From the IMG/VR virus record IMGVR_UViG_3300022916_000894: 18,475 nt of DNA; one strand, given 5' to 3'. The notes beneath the pieces are model-generated. The model was not told the origin of the DNA. It searched no databases and saw nothing but the letters and a program-made list of their open reading frames with translations. Position numbers and translations under genes: made by a program. The stretch's first letter is position 1; the number at the start of each line of letters is the position of its first letter. This DNA is from a virus. Taxonomy: Duplodnaviria > Heunggongvirae > Uroviricota > Caudoviricetes. Shown piece by piece: positions 1 through 16,837 of the stretch.

Positions 1-1382
1 TCAATATACGTTTTCAATGTCCCATCGTATCCTTCTAATGCACCCGCTGGTGTCCTCAACACCATCTTTTCCAAATCTTCTTTTCCGCCCACATAATCTT
101 CTACTTTGCCAGTCAATATATTGTAATACAATGAGTTGATTGTCAAATCACGACGGAGTACATCGTCTTCTACATTGTTAGTTAAAACTATAGTTGGCTT
201 TCTGCTTTCTGAATCATATATTTCTTTTCTCATTGGCACAAATTCAATCTTTTGCCCAAAGATATTTATGCCGCCGACTTTTAATGTCTCTTCGCCTTCA
301 TCACCATCTTTATCTACTAGTTTTTCAAGACTGACTTCATGGGCATTCCCCACGCCGTCTATATTATGATCACGAGCATATTTCGACATATAGTTTGCCA
401 ACTGTATACCAGATATATTGGTAGCGATATCAATATCGTCACTCTCATATCCCATTAGCTTATCACGGACCCATCCGCCAGCAACTCTACATTCTGCATC
501 CATTCCTTTTTGTTTCAAATCTGCTATAACCATCTTTATGAAATTAAATATCTTTTGTTCTATTTCTGACAGTTGGATATTATCATTCAATTGAGCCATT
601 TTAATTGATTTGACAGTATGAGCATGTCTAACCATATTGCTCCAAAATTCCGTATTACGAAGTTTGAGCCATGTTTGCGGTCTATACTTATGTTCTCTGT
701 ATCTAAGATTTTTAGCTTGTTGTACACGATCCCATTTACGGTTAATAGCATCGGCAACTGCTTCCTCTTCAGTGTCGGCGTGTATAGTTTCGTCTTCAAT
801 GCCTAGCTGAGATATATTGACTATATACGCATTTAAAGCAGCAGCCAATTTGGGATTAGACAAACCTGGAACTTTAGTATCAACTATCATATCGCACTTA
901 ATATCTTCTTCCTTTAAAATGTTTTGTACATCTTCGATTGTTTTCTTGCTCAATTTAGATGAAATATAGATTCTTTTTAAAGAGTTATGCAATGAAGAAT
1001 AATATTCTCCTATAGCCAATCCGCCAAAGCAGCTATAATCATCTTTAGAAATATCTATACATAGAAGCAAGGGGTAATCTTGTAAATACTTTTGTGTAAA
1101 CTTATAAGAAAATAGCATTGGCTTAATAGACGGAATTCTGTCTTGTGACAACGCCAACCGCAATTCTACCACATCCAATGGGTAATATCCCTTGTTCGAT
1201 TCTATTTTGTTCTGAATCAAATCCTCTAATAGCATCTGAGGATTTTGAATCAATTCATATGATAAATAACGAAATGAATTAAGTAAATCGCACAAGCAGG
1301 CAGACTGATCATATTTAAATGAAGTATCACATAGAATTTCATTTATCTTTTCGTGAACAGATTTTGCTTGTGCGTCTCCCAT
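1..1382 (-). CDS. cca: Class II tRNA nucleotidyltransferase (CCA-adding enzyme / PolA superfamily) with a 261-aa N-terminal extension; 3' end runs off the window
   Basis: Manual translation: ATG at 1382 (GGAGG SD at 1389-1393) is open to base 1, which is why it is absent from the ORF track. The catalytic head starts near the in-frame Met at 599 and has RVAGGWVRDKLMGYESDDIDIA (motif A, DxD), IEFVPMRKEIY, DDVLRRDLTINSLYYN and VEDYVGGKEDL. No bacterial poly(A)-polymerase G[RK][RK]F signature was seen, so CCA is favoured, but specificity is not proven. Confidence 0.85.
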   Translation of the reverse strand, partial: MGDAQAKSVHEKINEILCDTSFKYDQSACLCDLLNSFRYLSYELIQNPQMLLEDLIQNKIESNKGYYPLDVVELRLALSQDRIPSIKPMLFSYKFTQKYLQDYPLLLCIDISKDDYSCFGGLAIGEYYSSLHNSLKRIYISSKLSKKTIEDVQNILKEEDIKCDMIVDTKVPGLSNPKLAAALNAYIVNISQLGIEDETIHADTEEEAVADAINRKWDRVQQAKNLRYREHKYRPQTWLKLRNTEFWSNMVRHAHTVKSIKMAQLNDNIQLSEIEQKIFNFIKMVIADLKQKGMDAECRVAGGWVRDKLMGYESDDIDIATNISGIQLANYMSKYARDHNIDGVGNAHEVSLEKLVDKDGDEGEETLKVGGINIFGQKIEFVPMRKEIYDSESRKPTIVLTNNVEDDVLRRDLTINSLYYNILTGKVEDYVGGKEDLEKMVLRTPAGALEGYDGTLKTYI

Positions 1383-1384
1383 TT

Positions 1385-1534
1385 TTAACCTCCGCAACCA
1401 CATCCGCCTCGTTTCTTACGCAGAGAAGGGAATGCATTTGCTGTCTTTTTAGTTGGCTTCCTTTGATCAATTCTTCTCTTTAAAGCCTGTTTCTTTATAT
1501 CTTTTTTTAACTGTTTCAAATTGAATTTAGCCAT
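1385..1534 (-). CDS. Small basic protein (49 aa) ending in GGCGCGG
   Basis: Manual translation MAKFNLKQLKKDIKKQALKRRIDQRKPTKKTANAFPSLRKKRGGCGCGG*. It exactly fills the gap between neighbouring minus-strand genes (3-nt and 2-nt gaps). It is below the ORF-track length cut-off. Confidence 0.7.
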   Translation of the reverse strand: MAKFNLKQLKKDIKKQALKRRIDQRKPTKKTANAFPSLRKKRGGCGCGG

Positions 1535-3703: not shown

Positions 3704-3709
3704 TATAAT
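3704..3709 (+). promoter_or_regulatory. Putative -10 box for the nif3-like gene
   Basis: Perfect TATAAT 17 nt before the ATG at 3727; no well-spaced -35. Confidence 0.5.
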
Positions 3710-3726
3710 TGTTTGAAGGAAGAACA

Positions 3727-4605
3727 ATGATGACACAGAATATGAGATTTCCACAAAGTCCACACTCTACTCAATATAAGGGGAATCCCCTTGTAAGAAC
3801 TCCAAAAGAGGGATTACCCTCTCAAATAGAGATTACTAATTACTTGGCAAAGATATATCCAGAAGAGTCGCCTGAGTGGAAACTTTTTTGTGACAGATGG
3901 GGATTATTTAGTGATACTCCTAATAAAATAGTTAAAAAAATTCTATTAGCTACCACACCTACTGGCCAAGTAAGGAATTACTTCATTGAAAACGATTACG
4001 ATCTCTTGGTGGGCCATCACGATTTCCTAGTAGATGTGCCACAAGTTATTATGCATATCGCAATGGATATCGAACCCAAAGGACATAATGGCTTCTTCGC
4101 CAAAAGATTTGGATTTACTCATACCAAACAAATTGCTGGAATATATTACCATGGTTTTTTGCCTAAACCCTTGTTGTTTAACGAGTTATCCGATTTATTG
4201 GAAAGAAGAGGTTTTAAAGTAGACGGTTGCATATGGAGTAAAGACCTAAACAATAAACCAATTCACGACGTTCTGTATTGTTCTGGAATGGGAGGATTGG
4301 CCTTGACTCATGCTGGTTGGGAGAATACTCCACTGCGTGTGAACGAATTTAAAGCTGATGTTTTTATTACAGGAGAATTAACATCAAATATCGATAATAC
4401 TCCTCATAGATTTGACCATATTATTGAACTTGGACATACTAATAGTGAAAAACCTTTGTTTCAATGGATAAGGAATTATCTCAAAAATAGATGGGAAAAT
4501 CTAGAAATTGATTTAGCAGATAACTCGATAGACTTTTTTGGCAGAGAGACATATAAAGCGAAGGAAAAGTTTATGTCTAGATTTAACTATGTCAACCGTT
4601 CATAA
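3727..4605 (+). CDS. NIF3/YbgI (DUF34) family metal-binding protein
   Basis: D.WGL...VKKILLA, LLVGHHD, HIAMD...GHN..FAKRFG, ADVFITGE and IELGHTNSE match NIF3 metal-binding motifs. Start placed at ATG 3727 (GAAGG SD) rather than the track's 3709. Confidence 0.8.
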   Translation: MMTQNMRFPQSPHSTQYKGNPLVRTPKEGLPSQIEITNYLAKIYPEESPEWKLFCDRWGLFSDTPNKIVKKILLATTPTGQVRNYFIENDYDLLVGHHDFLVDVPQVIMHIAMDIEPKGHNGFFAKRFGFTHTKQIAGIYYHGFLPKPLLFNELSDLLERRGFKVDGCIWSKDLNNKPIHDVLYCSGMGGLALTHAGWENTPLRVNEFKADVFITGELTSNIDNTPHRFDHIIELGHTNSEKPLFQWIRNYLKNRWENLEIDLADNSIDFFGRETYKAKEKFMSRFNYVNRS

Positions 4606-4645
4606 AAAAATTTTCACCGGCTACTTAAAAAAACGCACTTGGCGC

Positions 4646-4651
4646 TATAAT
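4646..4651 (+). promoter_or_regulatory. Putative -10 box driving the ncRNA cluster
   Basis: TATAAT ends 6 nt before G4657, the first paired base of Y-like RNA 1, which is a typical start-site spacing. Confidence 0.6.
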
Positions 4652-4656
4652 ATACT

Positions 4657-4727
4657 GAGGTCTGAAGTTTGATACCTTAACTTACATTAAATAAGGCCAA
4701 AAACGGTATTGACAACAGCTTGACTTC
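4657..4727 (+). ncRNA. Y-RNA-like RNA 1 (minimal, about 71 nt)
   Basis: GAGGTC/GACTTC terminal stem, bulged T4663, GA/TT, GTT/AAC and GATACC/GGTATT, then a loop starting TTAAC. Same architecture as the Ro60-binding helix of Y RNAs (GGUC[C]GA / UUGAC). It lies upstream of ro60, and G.U pairs indicate the plus strand. Confidence 0.8.
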
Positions 4728-4766
4728 ATTATTGAAAATAAAATACAGTTTTATATAGTCTTATCC

Positions 4767-4870
4767 GCTGGGAAATCGCTGAAAGGCGTATTTGCTACTT
4801 CGGATACGTTCGTCCCCCCGAAGGTCTTTCGAAAAGATAGCAAAAGTTGGTGCAAATCCAACCCCCAGCA
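4767..4870 (+). ncRNA. Non-canonical tRNA-like RNA with a 33-nt insert in a CU-UCG-GA (Arg-type) anticodon loop
   Basis: Acceptor GCTGGG(A)/(C)CCCAGC plus discriminator A4870. D-position hairpin CGCT-GAAA-GGCG. Stem TTTGCTA/TAGCAAA. T-arm GTTGG-TGCAAAT-CCAAC. No encoded CCA. Confidence 0.65.
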
Positions 4871-4874
4871 TTAA

Positions 4875-4936
4875 TGGTCTGAAGTTGATAGCTTAACCTA
4901 ACCTGATAACGATTGCTATCGACAACTACTCGACCA
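4875..4936 (+). ncRNA. Y-RNA-like RNA 2 (minimal, about 62 nt)
   Basis: TGGTC/GACCA, bulged T4880, GA/TC, AGTTG/CAACT, ATAGC/GCTAT; loop starts TTAAC. Confidence 0.8.
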
Positions 4937-4950
4937 AATTAGAATTAAAT

Positions 4951-5031
4951 ATGGGCTGAAGTTTATAGGTTAACTCTGATCGCGGCCTTCGCGGGCCGCA
5001 CCACCAATCCTATTTACAACAACTTGCCTAT
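4951..5031 (+). ncRNA. Y-RNA-like RNA 3 (about 81 nt) with a GC-rich internal hairpin
   Basis: ATGGGC/GCCTAT, bulged T4957, GA/TT, GTT/AAC, ATAGG/CCTAT. The loop has TTAAC, hairpin GCGGCC-TTCGCG-GGCCGC (4982-4999) and ACCACCA. Confidence 0.8.
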
Positions 5032-5071
5032 TTTTATTATATTATTTGAAAACTTCATAACGAGCATGTAT

Positions 5072-5213
5072 ACGGGCTGAAGCCAATAGGTTAACGATAT
5101 CATAAATCCGAGAACTGGGTTCGACTCCTAGCGGCCATATTTCAAGTTTTACCCTTTTATGGCTGTGGTGCAACGGTAGCACACGTAAAACGCCTATAGC
5201 AATCCTTGCCTGT
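5072..5213 (+). ncRNA. yrlA: YrlA-type Y RNA with a circularly permuted tRNA-like domain (about 142 nt)
   Basis: Ro stem ACGGGC/GCCTGT, bulged T5078, GA/TT, ATAGG/CCTAT. T-arm CTGGG-TTCGACT-CCTAG (5115-5131). Acceptor-like stem CGGCCATA/TATGGCTG (5132-5139/5158-5165) closed by a loop. D-arm GTGC-AACGGTA-GCAC (5168-5182). The T-arm, acceptor, D-arm order is the YrlA topology. Confidence 0.9.
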
Positions 5214-5221
5214 TACAATAT

Positions 5222-5374
5222 ATGCGACCAGAAACCCCTAAAGGCTATATTATTAATTATAAAATTGCTGACCACAACTGTAGGCAAATTAAAATGAAAG
5301 TTGGGAACAGGTGACAACCTGATCTGATTTATTGGATAAAAAGTGTATTAACGGCCCTGAACTTCTGGTCGTAT
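5222..5374 (+). ncRNA. Unclassified structured element (about 150 nt) closed by a 12-bp terminal stem
   Basis: ATGCGACCAGAA (5222-5233) pairs with TTCTGGTCGTAT (5363-5374). Inner pairings GGC/GCC, TATATT/AGTGTA and hairpin CAGGT-GACA-ACCTG (5308-5321). Followed by a T-run to 5382. Confidence 0.55.
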
Positions 5375-5411
5375 TTTTTTTTGCCACATCACGAAAATTT
5401 CCACTATCTCT

Positions 5412-5420
5412 TGCTATAAT
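5412..5420 (+). promoter_or_regulatory. Extended -10 promoter (TGnTATAAT) for ro60
   Basis: TGCTATAAT at 5412-5420, 53 nt before the ATG. Confidence 0.65.
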
Positions 5421-5433
5421 ACAATTGTGAGAA

Positions 5434-5452
5434 TTGACCCGAATGGGTCTGA
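5434..5452 (+). promoter_or_regulatory. Leader hairpin reproducing the Ro-binding bulged helix in permuted order (candidate autoregulatory site)
   Basis: TT-GACCC-GAAT-GGGTC-T-GA gives GACC/GGTC, a bulged T and GA/TT, 8 nt upstream of the SD. Confidence 0.55.
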
Positions 5453-5473
5453 GAAAAAGAAAGGGAGAAAATC

Positions 5474-7123
5474 ATGGCTAAGAACATCGCTCAAATTTCT
5501 GGAAAGTCAGTTAGAGGGAACGCACATCAAATGGTTCAGGACGAACCGAATCAGGTAAAGAATAACGCTGGTGGATTCGTCTACCAAGTAAGTGATATCA
5601 ATCGTCTTCGTAGGTTCCTGACACTTGGAACTACAAACGGAAGTTACTACGTTACGGAGCGTAAGCTTTCTCGTAATAACGCCGATTTCCTTATCAGCTT
5701 CTTAGGTAAGGATCATGTGGCAGTTATTGACGAAGTTGTTAAGATGAGTCACGAAGGTCGTATCGCCAAGAACGACACTGCTATTTTTGTATTGGCTCTT
5801 GCAGCAGTTCATGAAAATGAAGCTGTTCGTAAGTATGCTTTGGCACATCTGAATGCTGTATGTCGTATCGGTACTCATTTGTTCACTTTCGCTTCCTTCG
5901 TTAAGGAAATGAAGGTAGGTACTGGTTGGGGCCGTGGTCTGCGTAAGGCTTTCGCAAATTGGTATAACGACAAGAGCGCGAGTTCTGTTGCTTATCAGAT
6001 TTGCAAGTACCAGTCTCGTTCCGTAGAAGGCGAATTGCCTTGGAGTCACCGTGATATTCTGCGTAAGGCTCATGTAACTCCTGCAACGAAGGCGCACGAC
6101 TTGGCTTTCTGTTATGCCACAAAGGGAGTTGAAGGGTTTGATAAGAGTTTCGACAACCTAAACGATTATGAGGACTTGCGTTACATCTATGGTCACGAAT
6201 TGATTAAGGGTGCAGAAAATGCTAAGATCGCTATTAGCATCATCAAGGAATATAAGCTTTCTCGTGAAAGTATTCCTACGCAGTTCATGAAGGAAAAGGC
6301 AGTATTGGATGAACTAGTAAATCATATGCCTATGACTGCTACGATTCGTAGTCTTGGTCCTTTGACCGCTGCTGGTACTCTGGTTTCTATGGGTGACAAG
6401 ACTCGTTTAGTGGTTGACAGACTTACAGACGAGGAAAATCTAAAGACTGCTCGTGTGCATCCTATCGCACTGCTTGCGGCTTTGCGTACCTACGAAAAGG
6501 GACATGGTTTCCGTGGTAATTTGTCTTGGAATCCTATCTCTCAAGTTAAGGACGCTTTGGAAGATGCTTTCTACAAGAGTTTCAACTATGTTGAATCTAC
6601 TGGTGCTAACTACATGCTTGGTATTGATGTAAGTGGTTCTATGACTTGGAGTGACATCTGTGGAATTCCTAACTTGCTACCAAGCGAAGGTGCGGCAGCA
6701 ATGGCTATGACGATTGCTCGTTCTGAAAAGAACTATGAGATTCGTGGTTTCTGTCATGAACTAGTAGATTTGAAGATTACTGCAAGAGACAGTTTGAACA
6801 GCGCTCTTAACAAGACTAGAAACTTGAGTTTCGGTGGAACCGACTGTGCGTTGCCTATGATTTGGGCACAGAAGAATAAGGTTCCTGTAGACGCTTTCGT
6901 TGTTATCACTGATAACGAAACTTGGCGTGGTGATGTTAAGCCTGCTAAGGCGTTGCGGAACTATCGTCAGGCTATGGGTATTGGTTCTAAGTTGATCGTG
7001 ATCGGAATGACTGCTACTGAGTTCACGGTTGCAGACCCGAATGATGGCGGAATGGTCGACATTGCCGGGTTCGATGCCAACTGCCCACGAATCATTAGCG
7101 ACTTTGTTCAGGGAAACCTCTAA
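5474..7123 (+). CDS. rsr: Ro60 / TROVE-domain RNA-binding protein (Rsr) with C-terminal vWA domain
   Basis: NQVKNNAGGFVYQVSDINRLRRFLTLGT (TROVE start), RIGTHLFTF, GWGRGLRKA..WY, KYQSR...WSHRDILR.AH, vWA MIDAS GIDVSGSM, GGTDCALPM and FVVITDNETW. 549 aa; AAGGGAG SD. Confidence 0.97.
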   Translation: MAKNIAQISGKSVRGNAHQMVQDEPNQVKNNAGGFVYQVSDINRLRRFLTLGTTNGSYYVTERKLSRNNADFLISFLGKDHVAVIDEVVKMSHEGRIAKNDTAIFVLALAAVHENEAVRKYALAHLNAVCRIGTHLFTFASFVKEMKVGTGWGRGLRKAFANWYNDKSASSVAYQICKYQSRSVEGELPWSHRDILRKAHVTPATKAHDLAFCYATKGVEGFDKSFDNLNDYEDLRYIYGHELIKGAENAKIAISIIKEYKLSRESIPTQFMKEKAVLDELVNHMPMTATIRSLGPLTAAGTLVSMGDKTRLVVDRLTDEENLKTARVHPIALLAALRTYEKGHGFRGNLSWNPISQVKDALEDAFYKSFNYVESTGANYMLGIDVSGSMTWSDICGIPNLLPSEGAAAMAMTIARSEKNYEIRGFCHELVDLKITARDSLNSALNKTRNLSFGGTDCALPMIWAQKNKVPVDAFVVITDNETWRGDVKPAKALRNYRQAMGIGSKLIVIGMTATEFTVADPNDGGMVDIAGFDANCPRIISDFVQGNL

Positions 7124-7678: not shown

Positions 7679-7858
7679 ATGCATAAAAATATTGGAAATG
7701 ATGAACGAAACATTTCGTTTGATATATCTCAATCAGGAGAAATGGTTACAACGATGTACGTGAAACAATTCGGTAGAAATAAATATGATCATTTATCGAT
7801 TCGTTTAACTAAAGACGAAGTAAAAGAGTTTAAGAAATTCTTTGTTGAAACTAAATAA
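7679..7858 (+). CDS. Hypothetical protein (59 aa)
   Basis: Manual translation MHKNIGNDERNISFDISQSGEMVTTMYVKQFGRNKYDHLSIRLTKDEVKEFKKFFVETK*. Starts 1 nt after the previous stop, with GAGGA upstream. Confidence 0.65.
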   Translation: MHKNIGNDERNISFDISQSGEMVTTMYVKQFGRNKYDHLSIRLTKDEVKEFKKFFVETK

Positions 7859-7868
7859 GGAAACAATC

Positions 7869-8330
7869 TTGGTAGAACTAAAAGACTTTTTGGAATTAAT
7901 CAGTAATAATTTGGACGAAAAAGAATATTCACCAGAAAAGAAAGAACGCATCCTTTCTGTAATCAAAAATATGTATGAAAAAGATATTCTATTCAAAGAA
8001 CCTGAACCCCCGGATTATACAAAACAAAAACCATTGTCACGAGAAGATCGTGTCAGTAATTGGATGGAATACTATCGCGGAGTTGAAGCATCTACTGGTG
8101 AGTATGTTTTTGAACAAACAGGCACAACAGAAGAACGTCATGAATTTGGTAGGACAGAGTTGCATAGAGCAGTTTATGTGTGCGATTTGGAGAAAATAAA
8201 AGAATTGGTTAAAAAAGGAATAGATACAACCGTAAAAGATAACAGCGGTTTCACCGCATATATGCAAGCATTACTTGATGACAAACAAGAAGCAATTAAT
8301 CTGTTCCAAGAACTAGGTGTTAATTCATAA
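7869..8330 (+). CDS. Ankyrin-repeat-containing protein
   Basis: C-terminal GRTELHRAV...DLEKIKELVKKGIDTTVKDNSGFTAYMQA fits the ankyrin consensus (about 2 repeats). TTG start chosen at 7869 (AAGGA SD); the track gives 7842. Confidence 0.75.
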   Translation: MVELKDFLELISNNLDEKEYSPEKKERILSVIKNMYEKDILFKEPEPPDYTKQKPLSREDRVSNWMEYYRGVEASTGEYVFEQTGTTEERHEFGRTELHRAVYVCDLEKIKELVKKGIDTTVKDNSGFTAYMQALLDDKQEAINLFQELGVNS

Positions 8331-9434: not shown

Positions 9435-9667
9435 TATATAAATTCGATACTACCTGATTCTAAATCTTTCTTTAATGTTTCAATTTCAAGTAATTCTTCA
9501 TCGCCGCAATCGGTTGAAATTACTCTACGCCATTCACAAGAACTGTCTACTACTTCTTCTACAACTTTCCAGATATGACCATCACAGTTATACTGAGTGC
9601 CTTTAGGAAACTCCGACTTCGGCCTCGTCTCTTTCACTTGTCCCGTTACTATTCTTTTCTTGAACAT
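9434..9667 (-). CDS. Hypothetical protein (77 aa)
   Basis: ORF track 9434..9694; ATG 9667 with GAGAGGG upstream is preferred. It overlaps the dnaJ tail. Confidence 0.65.
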   Translation of the reverse strand: MFKKRIVTGQVKETRPKSEFPKGTQYNCDGHIWKVVEEVVDSSCEWRRVISTDCGDEELLEIETLKKDLESGSIEFI

Positions 9668-10748
9668 TTCTAACCCTCTCAATGTATTCTTCAATCTTTT
9701 CTATTCTTTTATCGGCCTTTTTGTCCTCTATATTTCTAATTTTTTCAAATAAAGCTTTTTCTTTATCCGTCAAATTTTCTGGGACAATGATATTTAAACC
9801 CACTACCATATTGCCTTTTGCTGTTGCATGTCCTCGTATTGGCATACCATAATCAGATTTTTTAACCATAGTGCCAGCAACTGATCCGGCTGGTATTTCT
9901 ACCTTGATAATATTATCATAGACAGTTGGCAATTCTACTTCGCTGCCTAATACCGCTTGAGATATTGTGATTGGCAATTTAAGGAAAACATCGTCTCCAT
10001 ATCTTTCAAATATTTCATGAGGTTGCTCTACAGCTATAACATAGATATCCCCATTCGGTCCACCATTTTTTCCGCAATTTCCCTCGCCTTGCATAGCGAT
10101 AACTTGATTTTGATGGATACCTCTTGGTATCTTTACAGAGAACGTGCGTTCCTTTTCGACACTTGCGGTTCCTTTACATTCAGGACACACATCATCTTTA
10201 TCGATATATTTACCAGTCCCATTACATTTATAACAAATAGTCTCTCGTATCATCTGCATACCGTCCTTATGCGTAGATACTTCCCTTATTCGACCTTGAC
10301 CCCTGCAATCATTACATTCGTGCTTAGAAGCCCCTTCCTTAAGCCCAGGATGCTCTTTACAGACGGCACATTCCTCTTGACGAGTGACTGTAATATCTTT
10401 GATTAAATCCTTAGTGATTATCTCTTTATAAGTAAGAGGCATAGGGAATTTGATATGATTACCCTGCTGTGGAAAATCCATTGTACCTCCACCATATGCT
10501 CCTCGATGGAAATTCATGAATATATCATTAAGATTTACTCCGTTGGCATCACCAAGGTCATAATTGCGTCTTTTATCAGAATCAGATAAGACTTCGTATG
10601 CCTCTGTAATTTCTTTGAATTTTTCTTCTGAGCCATCTTCTTTTGATACATCAGGATGATATTGTTTAGCCAATTTTCTATAGGCCGACTTAATTTCGTC
10701 TCCTTCAGCATCTTTCTCAACACCTAAAATTGAATAATAGTCTTTCAT
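9603..10748 (-). CDS. dnaJ: DnaJ (Hsp40) type I co-chaperone
   Basis: J domain MKDYYSILGV...YRKLAKQYHPD...EAYEVLSD. Four CxxC repeats (CAVC, CNDCRGQG, CYKCNGTG, CPECKGT). C-terminal GGPNGDIYV...F.R.GDD..L...AVLG domain. Confidence 0.97.
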   Translation of the reverse strand: MKDYYSILGVEKDAEGDEIKSAYRKLAKQYHPDVSKEDGSEEKFKEITEAYEVLSDSDKRRNYDLGDANGVNLNDIFMNFHRGAYGGGTMDFPQQGNHIKFPMPLTYKEIITKDLIKDITVTRQEECAVCKEHPGLKEGASKHECNDCRGQGRIREVSTHKDGMQMIRETICYKCNGTGKYIDKDDVCPECKGTASVEKERTFSVKIPRGIHQNQVIAMQGEGNCGKNGGPNGDIYVIAVEQPHEIFERYGDDVFLKLPITISQAVLGSEVELPTVYDNIIKVEIPAGSVAGTMVKKSDYGMPIRGHATAKGNMVVGLNIIVPENLTDKEKALFEKIRNIEDKKADKRIEKIEEYIERVRNVQEKNSNGTSERDEAEVGVS

Positions 10749-10966: not shown

Positions 10967-11229
10967 ATCATGAAGTCCTCTCCCATAGTTTCAGGCCATA
11001 CTGTTTCTTCTTTCCCAGTAATAATATCAATTAATTTAACTAAATGCTTTTTAGTGTTTTCCCAATCAGTGTCAACAGACTCAGCGTGTTCGGCAATAGC
11101 ATCCAATTGCGGTTGTGTGCCTTCTGCGATAAATTCTTCGATGGAATTACTTACGCTTAATAAATCTTGTATACAAATCAAGATTTCTCTGTTTATTTTA
11201 TCGAATTGATAATCTTTCTCTCCCATCAA
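10963..11229 (-). CDS. Hypothetical acidic protein (88 aa)
   Basis: ORF track; 4-nt ATGA overlaps on both sides. Confidence 0.75.
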   Translation of the reverse strand: MMGEKDYQFDKINREILICIQDLLSVSNSIEEFIAEGTQPQLDAIAEHAESVDTDWENTKKHLVKLIDIITGKEETVWPETMGEDFMI

Positions 11230-12362
11230 TCCATTCTCCTCAATTGAGCCAATTCATTATAGCTAAAAGGACTCTTTGTTAATGTCATGAAAAAATTATC
11301 TAAAAGCAACAGTATTTCTGCGTCGTCTTGGCTGAATCTCATCTTAATCATACATTCTTCAAGAGTTTTTATAGCTTTGAATATATCTTCTCTCTTATAT
11401 TTTCGGATAGATGGCGTATTCCCATAAAATCCATTTACACATGCATTTAATACGAAACTAGAATAAGGCGATTTTGTTTTACCGTCCGCAGTCAAATCAG
11501 GTGTGAAATTCATAAATGGGCCTTTGCCTTTTCTGGTCAATTTCGGCAATTCATTTTGAATCTCAGTCGTTATATCATTTAGTGTCTTTTTTCTTGCTAT
11601 CGATTCTTTGACAAACCACAACATCCTAAATCTCCAAGAACATAAAGCGAAAATGGTTTCAGCTACATTCTTGATCTTATCAGTACAACAGGCTGAATAC
11701 AACATCGAAGAACACGCCACAAAATCCTTATCATCCAATGCGTTGAAAATCCCCTGCACAAACAATCTATTGTACTTGTCAGAAGCCTTAATAACAGATT
11801 CCTTAGTCACCTTCTTGCTTTTGCCAAGATAATCACATATCTTCTTGACACAGACGTACATCTTATCTACATTTACTCCCTTGTCCTCTTGACCGATAGA
11901 CTCAACTATAAACATGATATCTTCACTAGATATTTCTTTGTCTTGTTCTTTGAAACGATTGCCAACCCAATTCGATGCGTCACGAGGCTTAAGAAACTGA
12001 TCGAACTCTTTTACCTTTCCTATCTTCTTTACTGCTTTGCATAATGCTGGTGTTTTCTTTGTAGACACCCCATCAATAATGACAAAACAATTCTCAGGAA
12101 TTTCATTAAACATCGCCAATAATCTCTTTTTGTTCGCAGCATGAGATTTGCCGAAATCAGGAATTGCTTTTAAGATGATGATCTTATTGTCATCGAATAA
12201 AGAAGGCTCTGTAATTTGTGAATAGATATATTCTGCCGAATCAGATTCGTCGTATATACTCAAAGCATAGTCGTTTACACTTTCTTTGATCTTAGCAACG
12301 ATATTCTGACGCATGTAGTAACTACCACTCAGCCAAAACAATCTATTAGTTTTTTCAGACAT
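11226..12362 (-). CDS. holA: DNA polymerase III delta subunit-like clamp-loader protein
   Basis: LFWLSGSYY..., EPSLFDDNKIIILK, W+..RFKEQDKEIS..DI.FIVESIG and +FVQGIFNAL...D match the HolA layout. It is adjacent to the dnaN-like gene. Confidence 0.8.
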   Translation of the reverse strand: MSEKTNRLFWLSGSYYMRQNIVAKIKESVNDYALSIYDESDSAEYIYSQITEPSLFDDNKIIILKAIPDFGKSHAANKKRLLAMFNEIPENCFVIIDGVSTKKTPALCKAVKKIGKVKEFDQFLKPRDASNWVGNRFKEQDKEISSEDIMFIVESIGQEDKGVNVDKMYVCVKKICDYLGKSKKVTKESVIKASDKYNRLFVQGIFNALDDKDFVACSSMLYSACCTDKIKNVAETIFALCSWRFRMLWFVKESIARKKTLNDITTEIQNELPKLTRKGKGPFMNFTPDLTADGKTKSPYSSFVLNACVNGFYGNTPSIRKYKREDIFKAIKTLEECMIKMRFSQDDAEILLLLDNFFMTLTKSPFSYNELAQLRRMD

Positions 12363-15727: not shown

Positions 15728-16837
15728 TTATTTCTTACTTTTAACTACTTCCATCATTGCACCCACAGAGAAACTTTCCAACAACGCTTGGGCACTTATA
15801 TTGACTTCCAAACCTTTTCTCATTTCTACTATCAATTTAAGAAAATTGTATATCAATGTAGGTTTAGCCTTTTGTGCATGACTTTGCATTTTCTTTAACT
15901 CTTCGTCAGTCAGCCATCCACTCACCGACTCTTCCCCGCCCACAAGATACAACTGTAAATTTCTCAAATAGTTAGTTAGCCCTTGTATCACCTTGCCAGC
16001 GTTGGAACCTTGCACAAGCAATTGATTTGCACCCTTCATAACTTCTGGTGCGTTAACTGACAGAATGTTATGCACAAACTGATAGTACAATGTATTATCA
16101 ATCGCCCCTAAAGCATCACGAGCCATTTCTGTAGTGATTTTTTCTGTACCAGCATAACTTAGAATAGTCTGCAAGTTCTGTAATGCATTTCTACAACTTC
16201 CGTCTGCGAATTGAGCAGCGACTTTAATTGCCCCTTCCTCATAATCCATCTTTTCTTGATTCGCTATATTGATCAGATGCTGATATAGTATGTCCCATTT
16301 TATTTTTCTGAAATTCAATGTGATGCATCTACTAGGAATTGTAGATTTGAATGATTCAGGCTCTGTAGTGCAAAGAAGAAATCTTGCATGATCTGGTGGC
16401 TCTTCAATCATTTTCAATGCAGCATCCGCAGCATAGCCGGTCAACCCATGAGCCTCGTCAATGATAATGTATTTGATCTTGCCATGGATAGGACAGAAAC
16501 CTATTTCATCGTGTAAAGAACGTATATTGTCGACACCACCATTTGATGCGGCATCTAACTCTTTTACGTCAATAAATTTACCTTCGAAGATAGCCTTACA
16601 TGGTTCACACTCTCCACATGGTTCTGTAGTCGGGGCGTTAACACAGTTCTCCATTGCTGCCATGATTCTAGCAATTGAGGTTTTTCCGCAACCGAATAAT
16701 CCTTCGAGAATGTAGGCTCTATGCCAGTTTTTCTCTTTAAACGAATTGATCAAGATGCGTACAACTACATCTTGACCAACGATATCAGACAATTTTTTGG
16801 GACGATACTTAATCGAAAGGGGAACTTTAGATTGCAT
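15728..16837 (-). CDS. dnaX: DNA polymerase III gamma/tau subunit (clamp-loader AAA+ ATPase), gamma-length
   Basis: LSIKYRPKKLSDIVGQ, Walker A GLFGCGKT, Zn site C..PCGECEPC, ELDAASNGGVD, Walker B IIDEAH and SRC motif. Confidence 0.95.
   Translation of the reverse strand: MQSKVPLSIKYRPKKLSDIVGQDVVVRILINSFKEKNWHRAYILEGLFGCGKTSIARIMAAMENCVNAPTTEPCGECEPCKAIFEGKFIDVKELDAASNGGVDNIRSLHDEIGFCPIHGKIKYIIIDEAHGLTGYAADAALKMIEEPPDHARFLLCTTEPESFKSTIPSRCITLNFRKIKWDILYQHLINIANQEKMDYEEGAIKVAAQFADGSCRNALQNLQTILSYAGTEKITTEMARDALGAIDNTLYYQFVHNILSVNAPEVMKGANQLLVQGSNAGKVIQGLTNYLRNLQLYLVGGEESVSGWLTDEELKKMQSHAQKAKPTLIYNFLKLIVEMRKGLEVNISAQALLESFSVGAMMEVVKSKK

What the first reader, a model, noticed from the sequence alone, without database searches (positions are those of the whole stretch)
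5427..5473. Permuted Ro-binding helix in the ro60 mRNA leader: candidate autogenous control
Seen in sequence: TTGACCC-GAAT-GGGTCTGA (5434-5452) contains both Y-RNA consensus strands (TTGACC and GGTCTGA) in swapped order. It forms the same GGUC/GACC, bulged U, GA/UU helix closed by a tetraloop. It lies just after the predicted start site (about 5427) and 8 nt before the SD. Inference: free Ro60 could bind its own leader and repress translation, with the Y RNAs titrating it, like ribosomal-protein operator mimicry. I do not recall this being described for Ro60.
Basis: partly seen in the sequence, partly recalled or inferred. Interest (0 to 1): 0.72.

Follow-up and report, generated by a model that had tools for sequence, protein, structure and literature searches.

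The report
Y-RNA-like hairpin in Ro60 leader
Just before the ribosome-binding site of a marine giant-phage gene for the RNA-binding protein Ro60 lies a small hairpin that copies, with its two strands swapped, the site where Ro60 grips its partner Y RNAs. The same hairpin recurs at this position in many phage and bacterial Ro60 genes, so Ro60 probably limits its own synthesis, although nobody has tested this.

Summary
TTGACCC-GAAT-GGGTCTGA lies at 5434-5452. It follows a TGcTATAAT promoter-like box, lies 8 nt before the SD (5461-5467), and ends 21 nt before the ATG (5474) of a TROVE+vWA Ro60 gene. Four Y-like RNAs upstream carry GG(U/G)C-U-GAAG handles.

It is not chance. In 198 dereplicated rsr leaders from phage, metagenome and bacterial contigs, 29 carry the strict permuted motif U[U/C]-G..stem-loop-stem..C-[C/U]-GA within 45 nt of the start. 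About 0.9 are expected. The motif's 3' end peaks at -20..-11, at 10.4 per kb against 0.06-0.16 per kb elsewhere.

The closest accessible relatives (51-58% identity) have it with different stems: GACCA/UGGUC, GAUUA/UAAUC and GUCC/GGAC. The hairpin's bulged base matches the local Y RNAs in 12 of 12 loci.

The best reading is an operator that mimics the Y-RNA handle and gives Ro60 feedback control over its own translation, with Y RNAs as competitors. Binding and repression are inferred, not shown.

Three points weaken the case. The window's copy reads UGAG where 18 of 19 others read YGAA. Its outer UU/GA pairs are not stable on their own. Some close relatives lack the hairpin.

Eight literature searches found no description of this. 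Earlier agents of this scan noted similar rsr-leader hairpins on other DNA.

The parts
5412..5420 (+). Extended -10-like promoter box TGcTATAAT. It would start the rsr mRNA near 5427.
   Evidence: Read directly. The consensus scan lists TTTCCA-16-TACAAT at 5398-5425. No transcript data exist, so this is a prediction only. L003 has the same layout of U-run, TTGCAA-17-TATAAT, hairpin, SD.
5434..5452 (+). Permuted Ro-handle hairpin. UU 5434-5435, 5' arm GACCC 5436-5440, loop GAAU 5441-5444, 3' arm GGGUC 5445-5449, bulged U 5450, GA 5451-5452.
   Evidence: It is the only one of 12 strict motif hits in the 188-kb phage record that has the Y-RNA stem GGUC-U and precedes an SD and ATG.
5461..5467 (+). 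Shine-Dalgarno AAGGGAG of rsr, 8 nt after the hairpin and 6 nt before the ATG.
5474..7123 (+). rsr/Ro60 gene, 549 aa, TROVE plus vWA_Ro60. It is the proposed regulator and the regulated gene.
   Evidence: Best PDB match is Xenopus Ro60 1yvp at E 8.8e-126, with Deinococcus Rsr 2nvo at 4.5e-107. The N-terminal M1 and K3 are invariant in 25 homologues.
4657..4728 (+). Y-like RNA 1, handle GGUC-U-GAAG / CUUGACU. Proposed competitor ligand.
4875..4937 (+). Y-like RNA 2, handle GGUC-U-GAAG / CUCGACC.
   Evidence: sub-threshold match to the nematode stem-bulge RNA family RF01656, 29.3 bits; z -4.4.
4951..5031 (+). Y-like RNA 3, handle GGGC-U-GAAG / CUUGCCU.
   Evidence: (RF01656, 33 bits, below the gathering score).
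5071..5213 (+). Y-like RNA 4, YrlA-type with a tRNA-like T arm, handle GGGC-U-GAAG / CUUGCCU.
5226..5382 (+). Structured RNA closed by a 12-bp long-range helix and followed by a U-run (5374-5382). It separates the Y-RNA cluster from the rsr promoter.
   Evidence: This shows that the hairpin is not the junction of two tandem Y RNAs.

Best explanation
The hairpin is a cis-acting copy of the Ro60-binding handle of the phage's own Y RNAs, placed in the translation-initiation region of the Ro60 mRNA. Ro60 that is not occupied by a Y RNA would bind it through the same outer-surface site. In this window the 60-kDa ring would then sit 8 nt from the SD; in most relatives it would sit directly on the SD. 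There it would block 30S binding and perhaps expose the mRNA to decay.

The four Y RNAs carry the complete site (YGAAG plus upper stem) and would out-compete the weaker operator. Ro60 synthesis would therefore track the supply of free Y RNA.

Shown: the motif, its position, its recurrence in distant rsr genes with different stem sequences, and its match to the local Y RNAs. Inferred: binding, repression and titration.
For: (1) The sequence is as described and the core stem has pair probability 0.94-1.0.

(2) In phage and metagenome loci, 21-22 of 131 dereplicated leaders carry the strict motif. Dinucleotide shuffles give 0.7-2.1 (maximum 3-6 in 200), and 0.96% of other 90-nt windows carry it.

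(3) The replicate set of bacterial genomes gives 12 of 77, against 0.4 in shuffles and 0.7 from other windows.

(4) The two sets combined give 29 of 198, against 0.9 expected.

(5) The motif's 3' end occurs at 10.4 per kb at -20..-11 and at 0.06-0.16 per kb elsewhere. Motif variants with other flanks or bulge sizes are not enriched, apart from AA with a 2-nt bulge, which re-reads the same sites.

(6) The nearest accessible relatives keep the architecture with changed stems: L005:2970-2987 (53% identity), L003:2959-2978 (58%, also behind its own promoter) and L169:1456-1473 (51%). At least 15 distinct stem and loop combinations occur across phyla.

(7) The outer pair covaries: UU..GA becomes CU..GG in Myxococcota loci L208, L211 and L240.

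(8) The bulged base equals that of the local Y RNAs in 12 of 12 loci (permutation p 0.0014). The 4 nt before the bulge equal those of a local Y RNA in 8 of 12 (p 0.003). L156 has GAGC-U in both the leader and five Y RNAs, whereas its homologous hairpins in L034, L046, L069 and L077 have GAGC-C in both.

(9) From the literature: Ro60 contacts mainly the 5' strand GGUCCGA (PMC4201824). A minimal stem-bulge-stem CGAA RNA binds a phage Ro60 with KD about 17 nM (PMC12135203).

(10) No other mRNA leader in the 188-kb record carries the motif.
Against: No binding, expression or transcript data exist. No RNA run holds the sequence.

The window's copy reads UGAG where 18 of 19 other hairpins and all four local Y RNAs read YGAA.

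The bulged UU/GA extension is not stable in the free RNA.

The hairpin lacks the second bulge and upper stem. In vertebrate Y RNAs, removing either bulge abolishes Ro60 binding (PMC4726728).

Only about 15% of leaders have the strict hairpin. Relatives L004 (55%), L170 (51%) and L092 (45%) lack it.

The bulge and stem matches could partly reflect recent duplication from a local Y RNA, and the loci are not phylogenetically independent. The U bulge marks essentially one clade plus L156.
Confidence: 0.52

Rival explanations
1. Ro60 does bind the leader hairpin, but not to repress translation. The binding could instead protect the mRNA from exonucleases, load newly made Ro60 next to its Y RNAs, or recruit PNPase to degrade the message.
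For: All the evidence for a Ro-handle mimic applies equally. [quoted passage not shown] Ro60 and Y RNA tether PNPase (PMC4201824, PMC12135203).
Against: The tight spacing to the SD, with a peak at -20..-11, is what a translational operator needs. A stabiliser or loading site has no reason to keep that spacing. In many loci the GAA of the motif runs straight into the SD.
Confidence: 0.2
2. The hairpin is an evolutionary by-product of the neighbouring Y-RNA genes. It could be a left-over junction or partial duplicate, or a processing signal that separates Y RNAs from the rsr mRNA. In this reading it has no role for Ro60 at the leader.
For: The stem and bulge match the local Y RNAs, as a recent duplicate would. 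Many rsr genes have a full Y RNA ending just before the SD: 39 of 198 against 16 expected. In M. smegmatis, Y RNAs are processed from a precursor upstream of rsr (PMC4201824). Motif density is slightly raised in the Y-RNA region, at 0.16-0.27 per kb.
Against: In this window the hairpin lies 220 nt from the last Y RNA, behind another RNA, a U-run and a promoter-like box. L169 has the hairpin with no Y RNA found upstream. Density at -20..-11 is 40-60 times that in the Y-RNA region. The flanks UU..YGA are kept while stems and loops change. The hairpin persists across phyla.
Confidence: 0.15
3. The hairpin is a generic 5' stabilising stem-loop, or a chance hairpin, and its resemblance to the Ro handle is coincidental.
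For: The leader fold is thermodynamically ordinary (z -0.72). In the window the hairpin would lie about 7 nt from the predicted 5' end. The window's motif departs from YGAA.
Against: A chance strict motif within 45 nt of a start occurs at 0.45% of control positions. The stem GGUC-U is identical to two local Y RNAs. In relatives the hairpin keeps its distance to the SD, not to a 5' end. For example, in Streptomyces phage Genie2 it lies between the upstream gene (which ends at L252:517) and the rsr SD. A stabiliser would not conserve the single-stranded flanks.
Confidence: 0.08

Closest known systems
Ro60-binding lower stem ('handle') of Y RNAs: vertebrate Y RNAs, D. radiodurans Yrn1/Yrn2, bacterial and phage YrlA/YrlB, Thermus phage phiLo Yrl1/Yrl2
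   Same: It has the same two strands (GGUC-Y-GA and UUGACC), the same single bulged pyrimidine and the same GA/UY pair. Its stem and bulge are identical to the Y-like RNAs 500-800 nt upstream in this window.
   Different: The strand order is swapped, so a tetraloop closes the end that carries the 5' and 3' termini in a Y RNA. The side that leads to the upper stem and loops is open. There is no upper stem, no second bulge and no effector-binding loop. It lies inside an mRNA leader, not in a stand-alone small RNA. The window's copy has UGAG instead of UGAA.
Autogenous translational operators that mimic the protein's main RNA ligand (E. coli ribosomal proteins L1, S8, L20 and S15; threonyl-tRNA synthetase; phage T4 RegA and gp32; MS2 coat protein hairpin). 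Named from general knowledge, not tested here.
   Same: A small copy of the primary RNA target sits in or beside the ribosome-binding site of the protein's own mRNA. It would be a weaker site than the primary ligand, so it would fill only when the protein is in excess.
   Different: The protein is Ro60, for which I found no report of such control. The mimic is a circular permutation of the ligand's helix. The competitors are several Y RNAs encoded next to the gene. Regulation has not been shown.
Canonical Y RNAs or mini-Y hairpins placed directly before the rsr SD. Examples are L033:1442-1484, L168:253-269 and many bacterial loci; Y RNAs upstream of rsr are described in PMC4201824 and PMC12135203.
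   Same: The same Ro handle lies within 15-45 nt of the rsr start, in 39 of 198 leaders against 16 expected.
   Different: Those keep the normal strand order, and most are complete Y RNAs that may be processed off. The window's element is a 19-nt permuted hairpin with its own promoter upstream.

Membership tests
Ro60-binding helix of Y RNAs | 5' strand motif GGUC-(C/U)-GA, extended to YGAA (the 'CGAA' motif) | tested here: inconclusive
   GGUCUGA is present at 5446-5452 and is identical to Y-like RNAs 1 and 2. The fourth base of YGAA is G here, whereas 18 of 19 other leader hairpins and all local Y RNAs have A.
Ro60-binding helix of Y RNAs | A complementary 3' strand U(U/C)GACC that forms the helix | tested here: met
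   UUGACC lies at 5434-5439. The five core pairs have probability 0.94-1.0.
Ro60-binding helix of Y RNAs | A single bulged pyrimidine between the core helix and the GA/UY pairs | tested here: inconclusive
   The register allows a bulged U at 5450, the same base as in all four local Y RNAs. The two outer pairs have probability 0.004 in the free RNA.
Ro60-binding helix of Y RNAs | A helix made by the RNA's 5' and 3' ends, continued by an asymmetric internal loop or second bulge and an upper stem | tested here: not met
   The strand order is permuted and the 'upper' side is open, A/G-rich single strand. So the element is not a Y RNA. It may still work like its handle.
Ro60-binding helix of Y RNAs | Physical binding by Ro60 | not testable with these tools
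   No RNA-protein prediction or assay is available. A minimal stem-bulge-stem RNA binds phiLo Ro60 at about 17 nM (PMC12135203), but that RNA has the canonical strand order.
Autogenous translational operator by ligand mimicry | The site lies in the leader or translation-initiation region of the regulator's own mRNA | tested here: met
   The site is 8 nt before the SD and ends 21 nt before the ATG of rsr.
Autogenous translational operator by ligand mimicry | The site resembles the protein's primary RNA ligand and co-varies with it | tested here: met
   The bulge matches in 12 of 12 loci and the stem tetranucleotide in 8 of 12. The L156 versus L046-group switch is seen. The loci are partly non-independent.
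Autogenous translational operator by ligand mimicry | The site is conserved at the same position in orthologous genes | tested here: met
   29 of 198 leaders carry it against 0.9 expected, with a peak at -20..-11. It is not universal.
Autogenous translational operator by ligand mimicry | Protein-dependent repression of translation | not testable with these tools
   This needs reporter, toeprint or binding assays.
Curated RNA families (Rfam 15) | A match of the leader to any family model | tested here: not met
   There is no match at the gathering threshold in the window. None overlaps 5427-5473 even at E up to 10.

The most novel reading that the evidence does not exclude
A widespread, so far undescribed class of cis-regulatory element: a strand-swapped copy of the Y-RNA handle in the translation-initiation region of rsr. 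Through it, Ro60 of phages and bacteria from several phyla would set its own level according to the supply of free Y RNA. It would be the first known regulatory input to Ro60 synthesis that comes from Ro60 itself. It would also show that the handle alone, in either strand order, suffices for recognition.
Probability: 0.5. Interest if true: 0.75.

Novelty: new member of a known kind. Interest (0 to 1): 0.62.

Why it matters
Ro60 and Y RNAs are conserved from bacteria to humans, and Ro60 is a major autoantigen. How cells or phages balance the protein against its RNAs is not known.

A conserved operator in the rsr leader would give a simple homeostatic circuit and a compact 19-25 nt natural Ro60 ligand for structural work. 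It would also offer a direct test of whether the handle's 5' strand plus bulge is sufficient for recognition.

The idea is readily testable, because the hairpin is present in cultured phages of Streptomyces, Sinorhizobium and Microbacterium. It also tells annotators that a Ro-handle-like hairpin next to the rsr SD should not be called a Y RNA gene.

Tried and rejected
- **Rfam.** No family covers the leader.
- **TTGACC as a -35 box.** Rejected, because no -10-like hexamer lies 16-18 nt downstream.
- **Intrinsic terminator.** Rejected, because the stem is followed by a GA-rich tract, not U-rich, and the scan lists none there.
- **Junction of two tandem Y RNAs.** Rejected for this window. The last Y RNA ends at about 5213, and another RNA, a U-run and a promoter-like box intervene.
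- **Other targets in the phage.** The 188-kb record has 12 strict motif hits, which is background. The only other one followed by an ATG (C1:5231) lies inside a continuous ORF.
- **Closest relative (P0002, 81% identity, same NIF3-gap-Ro60-Ank synteny).** Its DNA could not be fetched, nor could that of P0010 and P0012.
- **Natural variants.** Contigs of four seawater runs laid on 4600-5800 were identical to the window, so they gave no covariation data.
- **Expression.** No RNA holder is listed.
- **Stein et al. 2005.** The paper could not be opened under the id I tried.
- **Relaxed motif.** 'Any hairpin followed by YGA' is too common to be informative, at 3.3 per kb background.
- **Permissive Y-RNA detector.** My first version gave many false hits and was tightened.
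- **Covariance model.** None was built. Stems of 4-9 bp and loops of 3-10 nt align poorly, and the rule-based counts with controls answered the question.

Full report
**What is there.** The window is part of a 188-kb IMG/VR virus record that CheckV rates 38% complete, so it comes from a very large phage. Identical contigs occur in many seawater metagenomes.

ORF 5474-7123 is a full Ro60: TROVE 1.3e-33 and vWA_Ro60 1.2e-63. Its best solved relative is Xenopus Ro60, at E 8.8e-126.

The 870-nt gap upstream holds four Y-like RNAs. Their handles are GGUC-U-GAAG/CUUGACU, GGUC-U-GAAG/CUCGACC, and twice GGGC-U-GAAG/CUUGCCU. Two of them give sub-threshold matches to the nematode stem-bulge (Y-like) RNA family. 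The gap also holds two further structured RNAs, and the last ends in a U-run at 5374-5382.

After the U-run come, in order:
- TGCTATAAT at 5412-5420;
- the motif TTGACCC-GAAT-GGGTCTGA at 5434-5452;
- the SD AAGGGAG at 5461-5467;
- the ATG at 5474.

**How the hairpin folds.** The 5-bp core GACCC/GGGUC with a GAAU loop is essentially always formed, with pair probabilities 0.94-1.0. The outer part that completes the Y-RNA-like helix (bulged U 5450, GA 5451-5452 with UU 5434-5435) costs 2 kcal/mol and has probability 0.004 in the free RNA. The leader as a whole is thermodynamically ordinary (z -0.72). The argument therefore cannot rest on folding energy. It rests on comparison.

**Comparison with relatives.** I collected rsr loci from four sources:
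- the closest protein relatives;
- IMG/VR;
- JGI metagenomes;
- as a replicate, bacterial genomes.

In each locus I chose the rsr start from the reading frame, the SD and the alignment to the query.

The closest accessible relatives show the same architecture with different stems:

| Locus | Protein identity | Leader element | Note |
|---|---|---|---|
| L005:2970-2987 | 53% | UU-GACCA-aaa-UGGUC-u-GA | Runs straight into the SD |
| L003:2959-2978 | 58% | UC-GAUUA-augcc-UAAUC-u-GA | Follows a U-run and a TTGCAA-17-TATAAT promoter, the same layout as the window |
| L169:1456-1473 | 51% | UU-GUCC-aguaa-GGAC-u-GA | Behind its own promoter |
| L167 | 57% | GGUCUGA kept | Imperfect 5' flank |
| L168 | 52% | Handle as a mini hairpin | Normal strand order |
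| L033 | 47% | Handle as a mini hairpin | Normal strand order |
| L004, L170, L092 | 55%, 51%, 45% | Nothing comparable | |

**Statistics.** I defined a strict motif: U[U/C], a stem of at least 4-5 pairs that starts G and ends C (G-U pairs allowed), a loop of 3-10 nt, one bulged C or U, then GA.

- Phage and metagenome set: 21-22 of 131 dereplicated leaders carry it. Dinucleotide shuffles give 0.7-2.1, and 0.96% of other 90-nt windows carry it. Of 24 variant motifs with other flanks or bulge sizes, only the true one is enriched, together with AA plus a 2-nt bulge, which re-reads the same sites.
- Position: the motif's 3' end occurs at 10.4 per kb at -20..-11, against 0.06-0.16 per kb in coding and distal regions.
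- Bacterial replicate set (Armatimonadota, Chloroflexota, Myxococcota and others): 12 of 77, against 0.4-0.7 expected.
- Both sets pooled: 29 of 198, against 0.9 expected from 9415 pseudo-starts.

At least 15 different stem and loop combinations are involved. In Myxococcota the outer pair changes from UU..GA to CU..GG, which is compensatory.

**Link to the local Y RNAs.** Where both a leader hairpin and credible Y RNAs were detected, the bulged base is the same in 12 of 12 loci (permutation p 0.0014). The four bases before the bulge equal those of a local Y RNA in 8 of 12 (p 0.003).

The clearest case is L156. Its hairpin is homologous to those of L034, L046, L069 and L077 but has a U bulge, and all five of its Y RNAs have GAGC-U where the others have GAGC-C.

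These p-values are inflated by shared ancestry. The U bulge marks essentially the window's clade plus L156.

**Specificity within the phage.** The whole 188-kb record has 12 strict hits on both strands, which is background. Only the rsr-leader hit carries the Y-RNA stem and precedes an SD and ATG. The one other hit followed by an ATG lies inside an ORF.

**Mechanism.** Three points come from the literature.
- Removing a bulge or changing the conserved sequence abolishes binding in vertebrates (PMC4726728).
- A minimal stem-bulge-stem RNA with the CGAA motif binds a phage Ro60 with KD about 17 nM (PMC12135203).

A strand-swapped hairpin presents the same helix, bulge and 5'-strand sequence. In most relatives its GAA runs into the SD, and in this window 8 nt intervene. 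A 60-kDa ring bound there would hinder 30S binding.

I therefore commit to an autogenous translational operator, with the neighbouring Y RNAs as stronger competing ligands (confidence about 0.5).

The rivals are:
- Ro60 binds the hairpin for another purpose, such as stability, loading or decay (0.2);
- the hairpin is a by-product or processing signal of the Y-RNA cluster (0.15);
- it is a generic stabilising hairpin or chance (0.08).

The constant spacing to the SD and the conserved single-stranded flanks argue against the last two.

**Weak points.**
- There are no binding or expression data.
- The window's copy reads UGAG, where 18 of 19 other hairpins and all local Y RNAs read YGAA. It may be a weak site.
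- The second bulge and upper stem of a full Y-RNA site are missing.
- The strict hairpin is present in only about 15% of leaders. A further share has a canonical Y RNA ending within 45 nt of the start (39 of 198 against 16 expected).

**Novelty.** Eight full-text searches and the two most relevant papers gave no mention of rsr autoregulation or of a Ro site in the rsr leader. Operator mimicry as such is classical.

Earlier agents of this scan noted similar rsr-leader hairpins on other DNA. I saw those notes only after forming my reading, and I tested the claim independently here.

**Test systems.** Cultured phages that carry the hairpin give ready test systems:
- Streptomyces phage Genie2, L252:524-541;
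- Sinorhizobium phage Phosso, L256:545-562;
- Microbacterium phage Cece, L258:506-529, whose 5' flank is AU rather than UU.

Noticed in passing
L168:253-269 and L033:1442-1484: Two relatively close relatives (52% and 47% identity) carry the Ro handle in the rsr leader in normal strand order: GGAC-U-G..UUGUCC, and CAGGGC-C-G..UUUGCCCUG. Each forms a mini-Y hairpin after a terminator or promoter. Both strand orders therefore occur at the same place.
   Followed up: partly
L011, L018, L020, L096, L135 and L137, about -50..-20 before the rsr start: This group of phage rsr leaders has a different conserved element: a hairpin followed by GGUUGA (GGUUGG in L020, GGUCG in L135) and then the SD, often behind a TATAAT box. 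One example is 'aucugaccauucgggucagguugg' in L020. It does not fit the Y-handle motif and remains unexplained.
   Followed up: no
L208, L211, L240 (also L203, L215, L219), about -35..-10: Myxococcota rsr leaders have the hairpin with the outer pair changed to CU..GG. The GG is the start of the SD GGAG, so the operator and the SD overlap.
   Followed up: partly
window 5474-7123: This phage Ro60 matches vertebrate Ro60 (1yvp, E 8.8e-126; human 9nen, 4e-125) better than it matches Deinococcus Rsr (2nvo, 4.5e-107).
   Followed up: no
L005:2880-2960: Between the two Y RNAs and the leader hairpin lies a tRNA-like element with a T-arm-like GGTTCAATTCC and a closing stem TCTGTC/GACAGA. It is reminiscent of the tRNA-like RNA at window 4767-4870.
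   Followed up: no
window 3709-4605 and 7842-8330: A NIF3/DUF34 gene lies upstream and a weak ankyrin-repeat gene downstream of the Ro60 locus. The same NIF3 - 0.9-kb gap - Ro60 - Ank order is recorded for the 81%-identical relative P0002, so the whole module is conserved.
   Followed up: no
window 3-1403, 9603-10748, 11226-12362 and 15728-16837 (all on the - strand): The neighbourhood encodes a CCA-adding/poly(A) polymerase-family protein, a full DnaJ, and DNA polymerase III delta-like and clamp-loader subunits. This content is typical of very large phages.
   Followed up: no
L251 (Mycobacterium phage Bxz1), last 60 nt before rsr: The widely studied Bxz1-type mycobacteriophages have a Y RNA upstream and a single-stranded AACCGAAUAAC about 35 nt before the start, but no permuted hairpin.
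   Followed up: partly
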